From Escherichia coli (GTDB taxonomy: Bacteria > Pseudomonadota > Gammaproteobacteria > Enterobacterales > Enterobacteriaceae), in NCBI RefSeq assembly GCF_030013595.1, contig NZ_CP122768.1: 64,000 nt of DNA. One strand, given 5' to 3'. The stretch's first letter is position 1; each line of letters begins with the position of its first letter. The notes beneath the pieces were generated by a model that was not told the DNA's origin, ran no database searches, and was given only the letters and a program-made list of their open reading frames with translations. A program made the position numbers and the translations under genes. Of this stretch, positions 2,196 through 6,800 are shown piece by piece.

Positions 2196-2711
2196 ATGTC
2201 CATCCGTTTTGCCCGCAAAGCCGACTGTGCTGCCATTGCGGAAATTTATAACCACGCCGTGTTGTATACGGCGGCTATCTGGAATGACCAAACGGTGGAT
2301 GCAGATAACCGCATTGCCTGGTTCGAAGCGCGGACTTTAGCTGGTTATCCGGTGCTGGTGAGTGAACAAGATGGCGTAGTGACGGGATATGCCTCGTTTG
2401 GCGACTGGCGTAGTTTCGATGGTTTTCGCCATACCGTGGAACATTCGGTTTATGTCCATCCCGATCATCAGGGCAAAGGTCTGGGGCGTAAATTGTTAAG
2501 CCGATTGATTGATGAAGCGCGGGATTGCGGGAAGCATGTCATGGTCGCCGGGATCGAATCGCAAAACCAGGCTTCGCTGCATCTCCACCAGTCGCTGGGA
2601 TTTGTCGTCACCGCGCAAATGCCGCAGGTAGGCACTAAATTTGGGCGCTGGCTGGATCTGACATTTATGCAGTTGCAACTCGACGAACGCAGTGAACCGG
2701 ACGCAATCTGA
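2196..2711 (+). CDS. mnaT: GNAT L-amino acid N-acyltransferase MnaT (YncA)
   Basis: 171 aa ORF, GNAT acetyl-CoA binding motif QGKGLGRKLL; conserved position next to curA. Confidence 0.85.
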   Translation: MSIRFARKADCAAIAEIYNHAVLYTAAIWNDQTVDADNRIAWFEARTLAGYPVLVSEQDGVVTGYASFGDWRSFDGFRHTVEHSVYVHPDHQGKGLGRKLLSRLIDEARDCGKHVMVAGIESQNQASLHLHQSLGFVVTAQMPQVGTKFGRWLDLTFMQLQLDERSEPDAI

Positions 2712-3160
2712 TGAATCAGTCGCTTACCCTTGCCTTTTTGATTGCCGCCGGGATTGGTCTGGTAGTCCAAAACACGCTGATGGTGCGCATCACTCAGATC
2801 TCCTCAACCATTCTCATCGCCATGTTGCTGAACTCTTTGGTAGGAATTGTGCTGTTCGTTTCTATTTTATGGTTTAAACAAGGCATGGCGGGGTTTGGCG
2901 AACTGGTGTCCAGCGTGCGCTGGTGGACACTTATACCTGGCTTGCTGGGATCGTTTTTTGTCTTCGCCAGTATCAGCGGATATCAGAATGTGGGAGCGGC
3001 GACAACTATTGCGGTACTGGTCGCCAGCCAGCTGATTGGCGGTCTGGTGCTGGATATCTTCCGCAGCCATGGCGTACCACTACGGGCGTTGATCGGCCCA
3101 ATTTGTGGCGCAATTTTACTTGTGGTTGGTGCCTGGCTGGTGGCCAGGCGCACATTTTAA
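2711..3160 (+). CDS. ydcZ: inner membrane protein YdcZ (DMT-like, multi-TM)
   Basis: 149 aa hydrophobic ORF, start overlaps mnaT stop (ATGA). Confidence 0.8.
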   Translation: MNQSLTLAFLIAAGIGLVVQNTLMVRITQISSTILIAMLLNSLVGIVLFVSILWFKQGMAGFGELVSSVRWWTLIPGLLGSFFVFASISGYQNVGAATTIAVLVASQLIGGLVLDIFRSHGVPLRALIGPICGAILLVVGAWLVARRTF

Positions 3161-3394
3161 TCAGAGGATGGTGCCACCTTTGGTTAACTGTTCGTGGCGC
3201 GCTTCCATATCTTCTTTATGCTTGCGACCGTGATGGGCGATCGCTGTGCGCAGACGCTGCTGCTGGGTGTAGCGATCTTCCCGACTTAACTCCGCGTCAT
3301 CGCTCAGGGCGATTAATAATTCGTTCATATGGGCAATGACGCTCTCTTCAATCGCGGCATCCACGCGCGCGATGACTTCATCCAGATGCGACAT
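3161..3394 (-). CDS. ydcY: small protein YdcY
   Basis: 77 aa ORF in conserved K-12 gene order. Confidence 0.7.
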   Translation of the reverse strand: MSHLDEVIARVDAAIEESVIAHMNELLIALSDDAELSREDRYTQQQRLRTAIAHHGRKHKEDMEARHEQLTKGGTIL

Positions 3395-3479
3395 ACTTTC
3401 TCCTTAGCCACTTGTGAAATTTATCGATTCATCCAAATGATATAAGTCTGCGTGGTGCCGTCAAGCCAGTGAGTAAGAT

Positions 3480-3653
3480 TTAAAACAGTGAAAACAACAG
3501 CGCCACCGGGAAACTCATCGGCCATGTTGCCCCCACCAGAAAGGCGCTTAAGAAACGGATGCGTTTCTTATCGTGAGAAAGAAACCAGGTGATAAGAAAT
3601 GCGATTGCTGCCATAACCGCATAAAAAACAAGCATGTGTTGATAGAGAGACAT
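3480..3653 (-). CDS. ortT: small membrane orphan toxin OrtT (YdcX)
   Basis: ORF 3480..3728; trimmed to MSLYQHMLVFYAV... (57 aa, two TM segments) as in recalled OrtT. Confidence 0.7.
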   Translation of the reverse strand: MSLYQHMLVFYAVMAAIAFLITWFLSHDKKRIRFLSAFLVGATWPMSFPVALLFSLF

Positions 3654-4343
3654 GTACGGGCGTCCAGCCAGATGAATAAAACGCGCGCAAATATGCGTCA
3701 TTTTTTGATGTGCATCAAGTTTTTTCACCAGTTTGAGAAAAAATCATCAACAGCAACTTGCCCTTATCCATCTTCAGAATAAGTATTATTGCGGATTTTC
3801 TTAACCCGTACTATACACATAGGGGCAATGATAAAAGGTGGCAAAAATGAATGTTTCCAGTAGAACCGTAGTACTGATAAATGTCTTTGCTGCTGTTGGT
3901 TTGTTTACTCTTATCTCTATGAGATTTGGCTGGTTTATTTGATGTAGTGATTTTGCACGCAGCACGTACTGTCAGAGAAATCAGTGCTCTGACAGTACGC
4001 AAGATCATCTCATACTCTCCAGGTTTACAACATTATCCTTAATATTTACTTCTTTTTCCTGACATCTACATTGAAATAAGTAGAAAACATCCCCCTCCTG
4101 TCGTCTATACAGACAGCTTACTGATTCAAAGGGAACCTTGTTTTCACATTTTTCTATCATCAATACTTTAGACGCGCGGGAGTCTATAAATGCTTTATAC
4201 TTTCAGGGAATAAAGTAAATATAAAAAGATGGCGTAAAGTATATGCATGGCAGGATGATTGCAACCTCCTTGATGACGCTGTCCCATTGAAATTGCAAAC
4301 CCCGCACTGGTTATCTTGCCCATTTATCATGCAGAACAGATAA

Positions 4344-5153
4344 TTATAGGTCTCTAAATATCTCAGAAAGATTGAATTTTTTATAGTCCATCTCTTGAAT
4401 ATTTCCATTTGATATCAATCGATTCATCTCTTCAACAAAATAATTTATATCATCACATTTGTTATTATCCGGAAGATCTGAGTAATTATAATTCCACCAC
4501 TTTATTCTCAACAATTCATCAATAACATTTGAATCAAATCTAAATCTGATTATTTTTGCTGGAACTCCTGCAACTATGGCATATGGGGGCACATCTTTGG
4601 TAACAACGGAATTGGCAGCAATAACAGCACCATCACCTATTGCGATGCCACCTTTCAGTACAACATCATTTCCTATCCAGACATCATTTCCTATAATCGG
4701 ATTTTCAGGTTTGGTAATGAATGGTTTCAATGTCCAGCTACGTTCAAACTCACTCTTAGCAAACTTATCAAATTCACCGTTATAAGTCATCATGTGAGTA
4801 GTAAAACGATTCAAAGGATGATTTCCACCCATTATTTTTACATTTGATGCAATACTACAAAATCGACCTATATGTATATTCCCTGTAAAATGACAGGTCG
4901 GGAATGAAAAAGCGCCGACACTGGAGAAATTTTTTACAGGCATTGTTGAATATTCTTCAGCAATAACATTATCTTCAATTGTTATCTTGTCACCTTTTGA
5001 GAAAAGAAATAAATTTCTTTCTTTATACGACTTCTTCCCCTTATGATTTAAAAAGATTTTATTATCCATACAAAACTCAAAGTGTTTTTTCGCCCACCTG
5101 AAGGTAAGGGTTTTATTTTTATCTTCCGTGAATTTATACAATTGAACTTTCAT
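4344..5153 (-). CDS. hexapeptide-repeat xenobiotic acetyltransferase, Vat/XAT-like (streptogramin A / chloramphenicol acetyltransferase family)
   Basis: 269 aa; C-terminal left-handed beta-helix repeats IGNDVWIGNDVVLKGGIAIGDGAVIAANSVVTKDVPPYAIVAGVPAKIIRFRF followed by LLRIKWWNYN, closely resembling the Vat family signature; very AT-rich codon usage unlike flanking core genes. Confidence 0.7.
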   Translation of the reverse strand: MKVQLYKFTEDKNKTLTFRWAKKHFEFCMDNKIFLNHKGKKSYKERNLFLFSKGDKITIEDNVIAEEYSTMPVKNFSSVGAFSFPTCHFTGNIHIGRFCSIASNVKIMGGNHPLNRFTTHMMTYNGEFDKFAKSEFERSWTLKPFITKPENPIIGNDVWIGNDVVLKGGIAIGDGAVIAANSVVTKDVPPYAIVAGVPAKIIRFRFDSNVIDELLRIKWWNYNYSDLPDNNKCDDINYFVEEMNRLISNGNIQEMDYKKFNLSEIFRDL

Positions 5154-5375
5154 TGTTAATACTTCTACTTATAAATTATTAGGTTAATAACGATACTCTA
5201 AAGCCTTATGCGAATCAACTATGACAGGATGAAAAATCACCAACATACATTTAGATCATAATAACTGCCTAATTTTTCCGCTAGTTATTAATGTAATCAT
5301 TCTGATACTTAATCACCATTACACTCAGAACCTAAAACGATAGTGGCCGCCCTATAACAGCCACTAACATTTAAC

Positions 5376-6800
5376 TTAATGTTTAACCATGACGTGGCGG
5401 ACGACGGTGTAATCCTCCAGCCCATAAAGTGACATATCCTTGCCGTAACCAGAAAGTTTCTGCCCACCGTGCGGCATTTCACTTACCAGCATGAAATGGG
5501 TATTGACCCAGGTACAACCATATTGTAGCCGTGCGCTGACGCGATGCGCCCTGCCCACATCTTTCGTCCATACCGAAGATGCAAGTCCGTACTGGCTGTC
5601 ATTCGCCCAGTTCACCATCTGTTCTTCGTTGTCGAAGAGCGTAACACTCACTACTGGACCAAATACCTCTTTTTGCACGATGGCATCATCCTGTAATGCG
5701 CCAGCCAGCAGCGTCGGCGCATAGTAATAGCCATTACCCTTGCGCTTTTCACCGCCAGTGATCACTTTGATGTGCCCTGTCGCTTTCGCCTCTTCTACCG
5801 CCTTGCTGACGCGTTCGAGATGCGCCAGCGAACTTAAAGGTCCAAGCTCCGTAGAGTCGTCATCCGGCGCACCCGATTTTAACGTTGCCACTGCAGCACC
5901 AAGTTTTTCCACCAGCGTATCGTAAATGCCTTTTTGCGCATAGATCCGACAAGCCGCTGTACAATCCTGTCCGGCATTGTAATAGCCAAAAGTACGTACA
6001 CCTTCGACCACCGCTTCAATATCCGCATCATCAAAAACTATCACTGGCGCTTTGCCACCAAGTTCCATATGAGTACGCTTTATGGACGGCGCGGTATGGC
6101 TGATGATGTGTTCCCCAGTGGCGATAGAGCCCGTCAGCGACACCATCCGCACTTTGGGATGACCGGTCAGCGGATCGCCCACCGTTTTGCCTCTGCCAAA
6201 CAGTACATTAATCACGCCAGCCGGGAAGATATCTTTCGCCAGCTCTGCCAACTTCAACGCTGTCAGCGGGGTAATTTCTGATGGTTTAAGCACTACGCAG
6301 TTCCCTGCCGCCAGCGCCGGAGCCAGTTTCCACGCAGCCATCATCAGCGGATAATTCCACGGTGCGATAGAAGCCACGACCCCCAACGGATCGCGACGGA
6401 TCATCGAAGTATGACCTTCAAGATATTCACCTGCCGCCAGACCATTCAGGCAGCGAGCTGCTCCGGCGAAAAAGCGAAAGACATCGACAATCGCCGGGAT
6501 TTCATCATTGAACGCACTATGCAGCGGTTTGCCACAGTTACGGGACTCCAGTTCGGCTAAAACCTGACCATTTTCTTCGATAACATCAGCCAGTTTCAGC
6601 AGGCATTCCGCACGCGCTTTCGGCGTGGTTTGCCCCCATTCGGCAAATGCTGCATCTGCCGCGCGAACAGCAGCATCCACCTGTTCTGCGGATGCCTCGG
6701 CAATCTCTAGTAAAACGTCCCCCGTTGCCGGATTATAGACAGGCTGTTTTTCCCCTTCGCCGCTAACCAGTTCTCCGTTAATCAGTAACTTATGTTGCAT
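5376..6800 (-). CDS. patD: gamma-aminobutyraldehyde dehydrogenase PatD (YdcW)
   Basis: 474 aa aldehyde dehydrogenase; N-terminus [27 protein letters not shown] matches recalled PatD. Confidence 0.9.

What the first reader, a model, noticed from the sequence alone, without database searches (positions are those of the whole stretch)
3964..3999. Near-perfect 13-bp stem hairpin inside the islet
ACGTACTGTCAGAG-AAATCAGTG-CTCTGACAGTACG forms a long perfect stem, not followed by a U-tract on either strand. It may be a protein-binding palindrome, an RNA processing site or a remnant of the insertion event that delivered the acetyltransferase gene.
Basis: seen in the sequence. Interest (0 to 1): 0.2.

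Follow-up and report, generated by a model that had tools for sequence, protein, structure and literature searches.

The report
3' end hairpin of yncL mRNA
The palindrome is real, but it is not part of the acetyltransferase islet: it is the conserved stem-loop at the 3' end of the small stress-gene yncL transcript in E. coli, an ordinary feature that published RNA-end maps already list.

Summary
Observation confirmed. A perfect 13-bp stem (3965-3977 / 3987-3999) with a 9-nt loop has no U-tract on either strand. It is the only perfect hairpin of 11 bp or more in the 64-kb window.

The placement is wrong. The hairpin lies in core E. coli DNA, 22 nt after the yncL stop codon and about 50 bp outside the islet junction. 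It occurs once per genome in 5411 of 5426 complete E. coli genomes, K-12 included. Only about 21% of genomes carry the islet.

In other Escherichia species and in Citrobacter the arms change by compensatory substitutions: 7 of 16 pairs changed on both sides, and loops vary freely. More distant yncL homologues carry a canonical terminator or another U-less hairpin at the same place.

Published K-12 data on identical sequence put an abundant RNA 3' end 3 nt after the stem (Adams 2021). They also list it as the primary yncL terminus (TRS 2023) and place a bicyclomycin-sensitive Rho termination region about 290 nt further on. The downstream tract is C-rich and G-poor.

Best reading: a protective 3' stem-loop of a Rho-terminated transcript, the class of Dar and Sorek 2018. 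It is not a REP element, an insertion scar or a demonstrated protein site. Low interest, already catalogued.

The parts
3847..3942 (+). yncL coding sequence. It encodes a 31-aa stress-response membrane protein (MNVSSRTVVLINVFAAVGLFTLISMRFGWFI). The hairpin closes this gene's transcript.
   Evidence: RefSeq annotation of the 100%-identical strain HCP5S3_I2 and of K-12; translation; Pfam PF28073:YncL on homologues.
3965..3977 (+). Left (5') arm of the hairpin, CGTACTGTCAGAG.
   Evidence: 13 nt, 100% complementary.
3978..3986 (+). Loop, AAATCAGTG. It is free to vary: AAATCAACT in many E. coli, and different sequences and lengths (4-9 nt) in other species.
3987..3999 (+). Right (3') arm of the hairpin, CTCTGACAGTACG.
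   Evidence: Covariation with the left arm across 15 Escherichia and Citrobacter sequences.
4002..4002 (+). Position matching the dominant steady-state RNA 3' end of the yncL transcript mapped in K-12 MG1655 (NC_000913.3 position 1517039, minus strand). It lies 3 nt after the stem.
   Evidence: Adams et al. 2021, PMC7815308, Supplementary file 1. The 61-nt sequence printed there equals window 3952-4012, and the 3' end is nucleotide 51 (register checked on the sgrS row). Read counts are 75,265 and 536,300, and the end is listed in three conditions. Independent TRS data list it as the 'Primary' yncL terminus at 1517026-1517043 with the same fold, -21.6 kcal/mol, max U-tract 2. Transfer to this strain is by sequence identity.
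4000..4079 (+). C-rich, G-poor tract directly 3' of the hairpin in the yncL sense. This is a candidate Rho-utilisation (rut) region.
   Evidence: C/G is 4.0 over 40 nt and 3.8 over 80 nt, the 99.9th percentile of 80-nt windows on both strands of the window. Islet-free K-12 gives 3.7 over 40 nt, other Escherichia 3.5-6.0, Citrobacter 1.7-2.9, and E. albertii 1.2. A Rho termination region is reported downstream in K-12. The rut function is inferred.
3811..3817 (+). CTATACA, a possible sigma-S-type -10 element upstream of yncL. Inferred only; it would give a transcript of about 180 nt ending at the hairpin.
   Evidence: Read from the sequence. The Salmonella orthologue (STnc1110 / STM14_1932) is sigma-S dependent (PMC5437024). 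Not tested here; the sigma-70 scan found nothing at this site.

Best explanation
The hairpin is the 3'-terminal stem-loop of the short, monocistronic yncL mRNA. Proposed mechanism: RNA polymerase transcribes yncL and passes through the hairpin, because with no U-tract it is not an efficient intrinsic terminator. Rho then loads on the C-rich, G-poor RNA just downstream and terminates transcription diffusely within the next few hundred nucleotides. In K-12 that region is antisense to patD; in this strain it lies inside the islet. The 3'-to-5' exonucleases PNPase and RNase II trim the tail back until the stable 13-bp helix (about -22 kcal/mol) blocks them. That leaves a precise 3' end about 3 nt after the stem and protects the mRNA.

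Shown: the hairpin exists. It is core, single-copy and attached to yncL. Its pairing, not its sequence, is conserved. In K-12 an abundant RNA 3' end sits at its base, and bicyclomycin-sensitive termination occurs downstream.

Inferred: the read-through of the hairpin, the trimming step, and the transfer from K-12 to this strain.
For: 1. Location: the hairpin starts 22 nt after the yncL stop codon, in the convergent yncL-patD spacer of the core genome.
2. It travels with yncL, not with patD. In islet-bearing E. coli, in E. albertii (IS1 downstream) and in Citrobacter (other genes or about 2.3 kb between yncL and patD), it always stays directly after yncL.
3. Covariation: 85.4% of cells are paired against 32-50% in slid controls. 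Seven of 16 pairs changed on both sides. The covariation score is 0.237 against 0.122 +/- 0.017 in shuffles, with 0 of 500 shuffles reaching it. Examples are CGTAC/GTACG to CGCAC/GTGCG to CACAC/GTGTG, CTGTCAG/CTGACAG to CAGTCAG/CTGACTG in E. albertii, and to CTGGCAG/CTGCCAG in Citrobacter.
4. Functional replacement: distant yncL homologues have a canonical bidirectional intrinsic terminator (L013, L103/104, L106-108) or another U-less perfect hairpin (L105, L024) at the same place.
5. Published Term-seq on identical K-12 sequence puts the 3' end 3 nt after the stem, with very high read counts in three conditions. TRS lists it as the primary yncL terminus with the same fold and a max U-tract of 2.
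6. Rho: a termination region has its best coordinate 286 nt downstream on the same strand. Coverage was 220 upstream and 9 downstream without BCM, 106 and 72 with BCM; Rho score 16.6, p = 5e-21.
7. C/G is about 4 immediately downstream.
8. All of this matches the class defined by Dar and Sorek 2018: precise 3' ends immediately after stable stem-loops that lack U-tracts, C-over-G enrichment downstream, and PNPase/RNase II trimming.
Against: No experiment separates termination at the hairpin from trimming back to it for this gene. The Rho score uses 800-nt windows, so it locates the Rho event only roughly. The RNA data come from K-12, which lacks the islet. In this strain the sequence beyond 4049 differs, although it is even more C-rich and G-poor. 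The palindrome is almost perfectly Watson-Crick, and wobble counts do not favour either strand: 9 G.U-type cells against 13 A.C-type cells. The alignment therefore cannot exclude selection on the patD-sense RNA or on the DNA. An extra 10-bp lower stem predicted for the + strand is not conserved in other Escherichia. ExcludonFinder lists patD-yncL as overlapping convergent transcripts, which leaves room for an additional antisense role.
Confidence: 0.7

Rival explanations
1. The hairpin is itself a non-canonical, U-tract-less or weak intrinsic terminator. It may act in both directions for the convergent pair yncL/patD in islet-free genomes. Under this reading the 3' end at +3 is a true termination product or a slightly nibbled one.
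For: The stem is stable and fairly long. The RNA 3' end is precise and abundant at its base. The site lies between convergent genes in K-12. In other lineages the same site holds canonical bidirectional terminators, so the site's role is clearly '3' end of yncL'.
Against: There is no U-tract on either strand: 1 U in the 8 nt after the stem on the + strand, a max U-tract of 2 in the TRS table, and no listing by the terminator scan. From established knowledge, E. coli RNA polymerase needs the U-tract for efficient hairpin-dependent release. Intrinsic 3' ends usually lie 7-9 nt after the stem, not 3. Bicyclomycin raises downstream coverage about 8-fold. No patD-sense 3' end is listed at the hairpin.
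Confidence: 0.17
2. The palindrome is a double-stranded-DNA binding site for a dimeric regulator, or a cruciform-forming site, in the yncL-patD spacer.
For: The repeat has perfect dyad symmetry with a 9-bp spacer. The five central pairs (CAGAG/CTCTG core) are invariant across Escherichia and Citrobacter. The outer arms contain LexA-like half-site letters, TACTGT and ACAGTA. Wobble counts do not prove an RNA strand.
Against: The site lies at the 3' ends of both neighbouring genes, not at a promoter. Seven of 16 positions changed symmetrically between close relatives, and spacer length and sequence vary (4-9 nt), which fits a helix better than a protein-contact surface. The CTGT...ACAG spacing is 19 nt rather than the 8 nt of a LexA box. 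Remote homologues replace it with unrelated terminator hairpins. A mapped RNA 3' end explains the element without any DNA-binding role.
Confidence: 0.04
3. The hairpin, or the sense/antisense overlap around it, is mainly an RNase III or excludon processing site. It would couple yncL and patD expression.
For: patD-yncL is listed among convergent excludons from RNA-seq coverage. yncL mRNA abundance changed in ribonuclease mutants in a tiling-array study, direction not retrievable. yncL read-through runs antisense into patD in K-12.
Against: A 13-bp helix is short for RNase III, which typically needs about 20 bp (established knowledge). In the 21% of E. coli with the islet, and in Citrobacter and E. 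albertii, patD is no longer opposite yncL, yet the hairpin is retained. An end at the base of the stem is the signature of exonuclease blockage, not of cleavage within the stem.
Confidence: 0.06
4. The hairpin is a scar, attachment site or terminal repeat left by insertion of the CatB-related acetyltransferase islet, or a REP-like dispersed element.
For: It lies close to the islet (about 50 bp from the junction), and the DNA just downstream varies between strains and species.
Against: It is identical in islet-free genomes, K-12 included. It occurs in 5411 of 5426 genomes, against 1154 with the islet. It is single-copy per genome, and the window holds no other copy within 1 mismatch. It is conserved with yncL in other species.
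Confidence: 0.01

Closest known systems
[quoted passage not shown] 2012)
   Same: A stable stem-loop has the steady-state RNA 3' end immediately after it. It has no U-tract and no upstream A-tract, a C-over-G bias downstream, and bicyclomycin-sensitive read-through beyond it.
   Different: Exonuclease dependence (pnp, rnb) has not been shown for this gene. I could not check whether yncL is in their list, because the supplement is not held. The stem here is an unusually long, perfect palindrome of mixed composition rather than a G+C-rich one.
Canonical intrinsic (Rho-independent) terminators, including bidirectional ones between convergent genes
   Same: It is a hairpin at the end of a gene, between convergent genes in K-12. 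Remote yncL homologues have true bidirectional terminators at the same position.
   Different: There is no U-tract on either strand, and the 3' end is only 3 nt from the stem.
REP / BIME extragenic palindromes
   Same: It is an extragenic palindrome that can stabilise upstream mRNA against 3' exonucleases.
   Different: It is single-copy in the genome and specific to the yncL locus, with no REP consensus.
Salmonella STnc1110, first described as an sRNA and later shown to carry the yncL orthologue (PMC5437024)
   Same: It is the same gene expressed as a short, discrete, sigma-S-dependent transcript.
   Different: I did not retrieve the Salmonella sequence, so whether its 3' end uses a homologous hairpin is untested. 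No Rfam family matched the window region.

Membership tests
Protective 3' stem-loop of a Rho-dependent transcript | The steady-state RNA 3' end lies immediately downstream of an energetically stable stem-loop. | tested here: met
   The fold is -21.6 kcal/mol with z about -5. The published K-12 Term-seq 3' end lies 3 nt after the stem on identical sequence. The TRS primary yncL terminus has the same fold.
Protective 3' stem-loop of a Rho-dependent transcript | No U-rich tract after the stem. | tested here: met
   The tail is CAAGAUCAUC. It is not called by the terminator scan, and the max U-tract is 2 in the TRS table.
Protective 3' stem-loop of a Rho-dependent transcript | Rho dependence: bicyclomycin increases read-through downstream. 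| tested here: met
   This rests on literature data for K-12 only. The Rho termination region peaks at 1516753 (-), 286 nt downstream. Coverage changes from 220/9 to 106/72 with BCM, score 16.6. It has not been measured in this strain.
Protective 3' stem-loop of a Rho-dependent transcript | C-over-G enrichment (rut-like) downstream of the stem-loop. | tested here: met
   C/G is 4.0 over 40 nt and 3.8 over 80 nt, the 99.9th percentile of the window. The bias holds in K-12, other Escherichia and most Citrobacter, but not in E. albertii, where C/G is 1.2.
Protective 3' stem-loop of a Rho-dependent transcript | The 3' tail is trimmed by PNPase or RNase II up to the stem-loop, and the stem-loop stabilises the mRNA. 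| not testable with these tools
   This needs RNA-seq or northern blots in pnp/rnb mutants and hairpin mutants.
Intrinsic (Rho-independent) terminator | A G+C-rich hairpin followed directly by a run of U. | tested here: not met
   The hairpin is present, but there is no T-run on either strand.
REP / dispersed extragenic palindrome | Many copies per genome sharing a consensus. | tested here: not met
   There is one place per genome in 5411 of 5426 E. coli genomes. The window holds no other copy within 1 mismatch.
Islet insertion scar / att site / terminal inverted repeat | Present only with the islet and located at its boundary. | tested here: not met
   It is present in islet-free genomes, and the junction is about 50 bp away.
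LexA (SOS) box | CTGT-N8-ACAG dyad. | tested here: not met
   The CTGT and ACAG letters are 19 nt apart. The arm letters change in E. albertii and Citrobacter.
Rfam RNA families | A match at or near the gathering score. | tested here: not met
   No hit overlaps 3940-4010, even at E <= 10.

The most novel reading that the evidence does not exclude
The perfectly symmetric palindrome might be kept because it works on both strands. It would fold in the yncL RNA and also in any transcript entering from the opposite side (patD in K-12, the islet in this strain). It would then act as a U-tract-independent, two-way boundary that insulates yncL from whatever gene lands next to it. That could explain why the DNA just beyond it tolerates recurrent insertions: the islet, IS1, IS3 and other genes.
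Probability: 0.08. Interest if true: 0.4.

Novelty: already known. Interest (0 to 1): 0.1.

Why it matters
It matters little beyond correct annotation. The result shows that the hairpin belongs to the core gene yncL and not to the acetyltransferase islet. It adds clear covariation support for one member of the class of U-less protective 3' stem-loops on Rho-terminated mRNAs. It also corrects one published label: this 3' end is classed as 'antisense to patD' in one data set, although it is the yncL mRNA terminus. For anyone studying YncL, a small stress protein whose mRNA is targeted by sRNAs such as RprA, the hairpin defines the 3' boundary of a transcript of about 180 nt and gives an obvious handle for stability mutants.

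Tried and rejected
- Rfam scan of 3300-5500 at E <= 10: nothing at the hairpin.
- Promoter/terminator scan: the hairpin was not called as a terminator. A weak promoter-like match at 3989-4016 is no better than the shuffled expectation.
- Extra copies: none in the window or in E. coli genomes, so REP is rejected.
- Lower stem 3947-3956 / 3999-4008, suggested by the + strand fold: not conserved in other Escherichia, and the mapped 3' end at 4002 would cut it. Dropped.
- Strand assignment from G.U against A.C wobble counts: inconclusive, 9 against 13.
I used the listing of cluster members, an HMM search of representatives and the look-up of encoding contigs instead.
Only about 20 enterobacterial loci came back, and Salmonella was not among them.
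- Supplements of Dar and Sorek 2018 and Stead 2011 are not held. The TERMITe supplements do not mention yncL.
- The direction of the yncL change in RNase E/III mutants could not be recovered.

Full report
**What is there.** The window is E. coli chromosome, 100% identical over 3400-5400 to strain HCP5S3_I2. The local gene order is as follows:

| Gene | Coordinates | Strand |
|---|---|---|
| mnaT | 2196-2711 | + |
| ydcZ | 2711-3160 | + |
| ydcY | 3161-3394 | - |
| ortT | 3480-3653 | - |
| yncL (31 aa) | 3847-3942 | + |
| CatB-related O-acetyltransferase | 4344-5153 | - |
| patD | 5376-6800 | - |

The reported palindrome is real. The arms 3965-3977 and 3987-3999 are 13 nt, fully complementary, with a 9-nt loop. 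As RNA it folds at about -22 kcal/mol on either strand, with z about -5. It is the only perfect hairpin of 11 bp or more in the 64-kb window, whereas simulated sequence gives 0.43 such hairpins of 11 bp or more per 64 kb. Neither strand has a T-run after the stem.

**It is not in the islet.** Genomes that lack the acetyltransferase gene, K-12 included, align with the window from 3400 to 4048 and carry the identical hairpin. In K-12 the hairpin sits in the 96-bp spacer between the convergent genes yncL and patD. A 69-nt query centred on the hairpin finds one place per genome in 5411 of 5426 complete E. coli genomes. Only 1154 genomes carry the islet. The element is therefore core, single-copy DNA. 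It is not a REP element and not an insertion scar.

**Variation within E. coli.** The variation seen is a three-base change in the loop (GTG to ACT), which adds a fourteenth pair, together with rare changes at the foot of the stem.

**It belongs to yncL and is conserved as a helix.**
- I anchored on PatD and on exact YncL protein variants. These gave yncL loci from other Escherichia lineages, E. whittamii, E. albertii and seven Citrobacter genomes.
- What lies downstream of yncL differs between them: patD, the islet, IS1, an IS3-family element, or an HTH gene plus a GNAT gene. A hairpin homologous to the E. coli one always follows the yncL stop codon.
- The arms differ by paired substitutions. 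CGTAC/GTACG becomes CGCAC/GTGCG and CACAC/GTGTG. CTGTCAG/CTGACAG becomes CAGTCAG/CTGACTG in E. albertii and CTGGCAG/CTGCCAG in Citrobacter.
- On a 15-sequence alignment, 85.4% of cells pair, against 32-50% when the partner is slid. Seven of 16 pairs have changes on both sides. The covariation score (0.237) exceeds all 500 shuffles. The loop varies in sequence and length.
- An HMM search of 1.8 billion representative proteins found more remote YncL homologues. Downstream of these genes lies either a canonical bidirectional intrinsic terminator or a different perfect hairpin without a U-tract.
- The constant feature of the family is therefore a strong 3' hairpin after yncL. Its type is interchangeable.

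**Direct RNA evidence from the literature.**
- Adams et al. 2021 (PMC7815308), Supplementary file 1, lists a Term-seq 3' end at MG1655 position 1517039, minus strand, in all three growth conditions. Read counts are 75,265 and 536,300. The printed sequence is window 3952-4012 exactly.
- With the register checked on the sgrS row, that 3' end corresponds to window 4002, 3 nt after the stem. The table labels it 'antisense to patD', apparently because yncL was missing from the annotation used.
- The TRS study (PMC10687069) independently lists a 'Primary' 3' terminus for yncL at 1517026-1517043. It gives the same 13-bp fold (-21.6 kcal/mol), a longest U run of 2, and a 66-nt 3' UTR.
- Adams et al. 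also report a Rho termination region whose best coordinate is 286 nt further downstream on the same strand. Coverage is 220 upstream and 9 downstream without bicyclomycin, and 106 and 72 with it; Rho score 16.6.
- The RNA just after the hairpin is C-rich and G-poor. C/G is 4.0 over 40 nt and 3.8 over 80 nt, the 99.9th percentile of the window. A similar bias appears in K-12, other Escherichia and most Citrobacter, but not in E. albertii.

**Mechanism.** These features are the ones Dar and Sorek 2018 (PMC6061677) describe for Rho-dependent transcripts. Such transcripts have precise steady-state 3' ends immediately after stable stem-loops that lack U-tracts. They show C-over-G enrichment downstream, and PNPase and RNase II trim them back to the stem-loop.

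I therefore read the element as the protective 3' stem-loop of the yncL mRNA. Polymerase passes the hairpin. Rho terminates within the next few hundred nucleotides. Exonucleases then chew back to the helix, which sets the 3' end and stabilises the message. The position of the RNA end, the downstream Rho-sensitive termination and the conservation of pairing are shown. The read-through, the trimming and the transfer from K-12 to this islet-bearing strain are inferred.

**Rivals.**
- A U-less intrinsic or bidirectional terminator is the main alternative (about 0.17). It would explain the precise end. It conflicts with the missing U-tract, the +3 position of the end and the bicyclomycin effect.
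- A DNA-level protein site is unlikely (about 0.04). The element sits at gene 3' ends, and seven pairs changed symmetrically among close relatives. The invariant CAGAG/CTCTG core and the inconclusive wobble count (9 G.U-type against 13 A.C-type cells) mean it is not formally excluded.
- An RNase III or excludon role is possible as an add-on in K-12-type genomes. It cannot be the reason for conservation where patD is no longer opposite yncL.

**Verdict.** The element is an ordinary example of a known class that published 3'-end maps already list. Interest is low.

Noticed in passing
window 4029-4051 and about 5353-5375: The acetyltransferase islet (about 1.3 kb, low G+C) is flanked by an imperfect direct repeat: ACAACATTATCCTTAATATTTAC and CTAACATTTAACTTAATGTTTAAC, 16 of 23 positions identical. 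The K-12 junction ATTATCCTTAATGTTTAACC reads like a crossover inside CTTAAT. The islet-free form could therefore be a deletion between the repeats rather than the empty site of an insertion. Citrobacter keeps ATTATCCTTAAT after its hairpin too.
   Followed up: partly
window 5341-5366 (- strand): The islet supplies patD with its own canonical terminator-like hairpin plus T-run (TAGTGGCTGTTATAGGGCGGCCACTA TCGTTTTAGG), 10 nt after the patD stop. In this strain patD therefore does not depend on the yncL hairpin.
   Followed up: no
L087/L088 about 1700-2431; L004 2379-3069; L092, L095-L097, L102 downstream of 1700: The DNA just beyond the yncL hairpin and its C-rich tract varies repeatedly. It holds IS1 in E. 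albertii, an IS3 element cutting the acetyltransferase gene in E. coli EC11, and an HTH gene plus a GNAT gene, an IS3-family transposase or an AraC-type regulator gene in Citrobacter.
   Followed up: partly
window 3984-3986: A loop polymorphism changes three adjacent bases (GTG to ACT). It is seen in three of the six E. coli sequences aligned, and the four- and six-mismatch variants sampled from the 90-95% identity band (879 genomes) both carry it. It lengthens the stem to 14 bp. Three neighbouring changes at once suggest a single templated or multi-nucleotide event.
   Followed up: no
K-12 position 1517039 (-), equivalent to window 4002: In Adams et al. 2021, Supplementary file 1, this very abundant 3' end is classed as 'antisense to patD'. 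It is in fact the yncL mRNA terminus, and the TRS paper annotates it correctly.
   Followed up: yes
protein P0037 (82 aa): One database protein is YncL fused to a read-through translation across the hairpin and on through the spacer into the strand opposite the 3' end of patD. This is a stop-codon-loss variant or a sequencing or annotation artefact.
   Followed up: no
window 3811-3829: CTATACA upstream of yncL resembles a sigma-S-type -10 element. The Salmonella orthologue (STnc1110) is sigma-S dependent and was first described as a non-coding sRNA. RIL-seq and TRIC-seq papers list yncL mRNA as a target of RprA and KilS.
   Followed up: no
L109 1201-1499: In one remote lineage yncL has no strong hairpin directly after its stop codon. 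About 100 nt downstream it is followed by a second small gene (YniD-like, 35 aa) on the same strand, possibly forming a two-gene small-protein operon.
   Followed up: no
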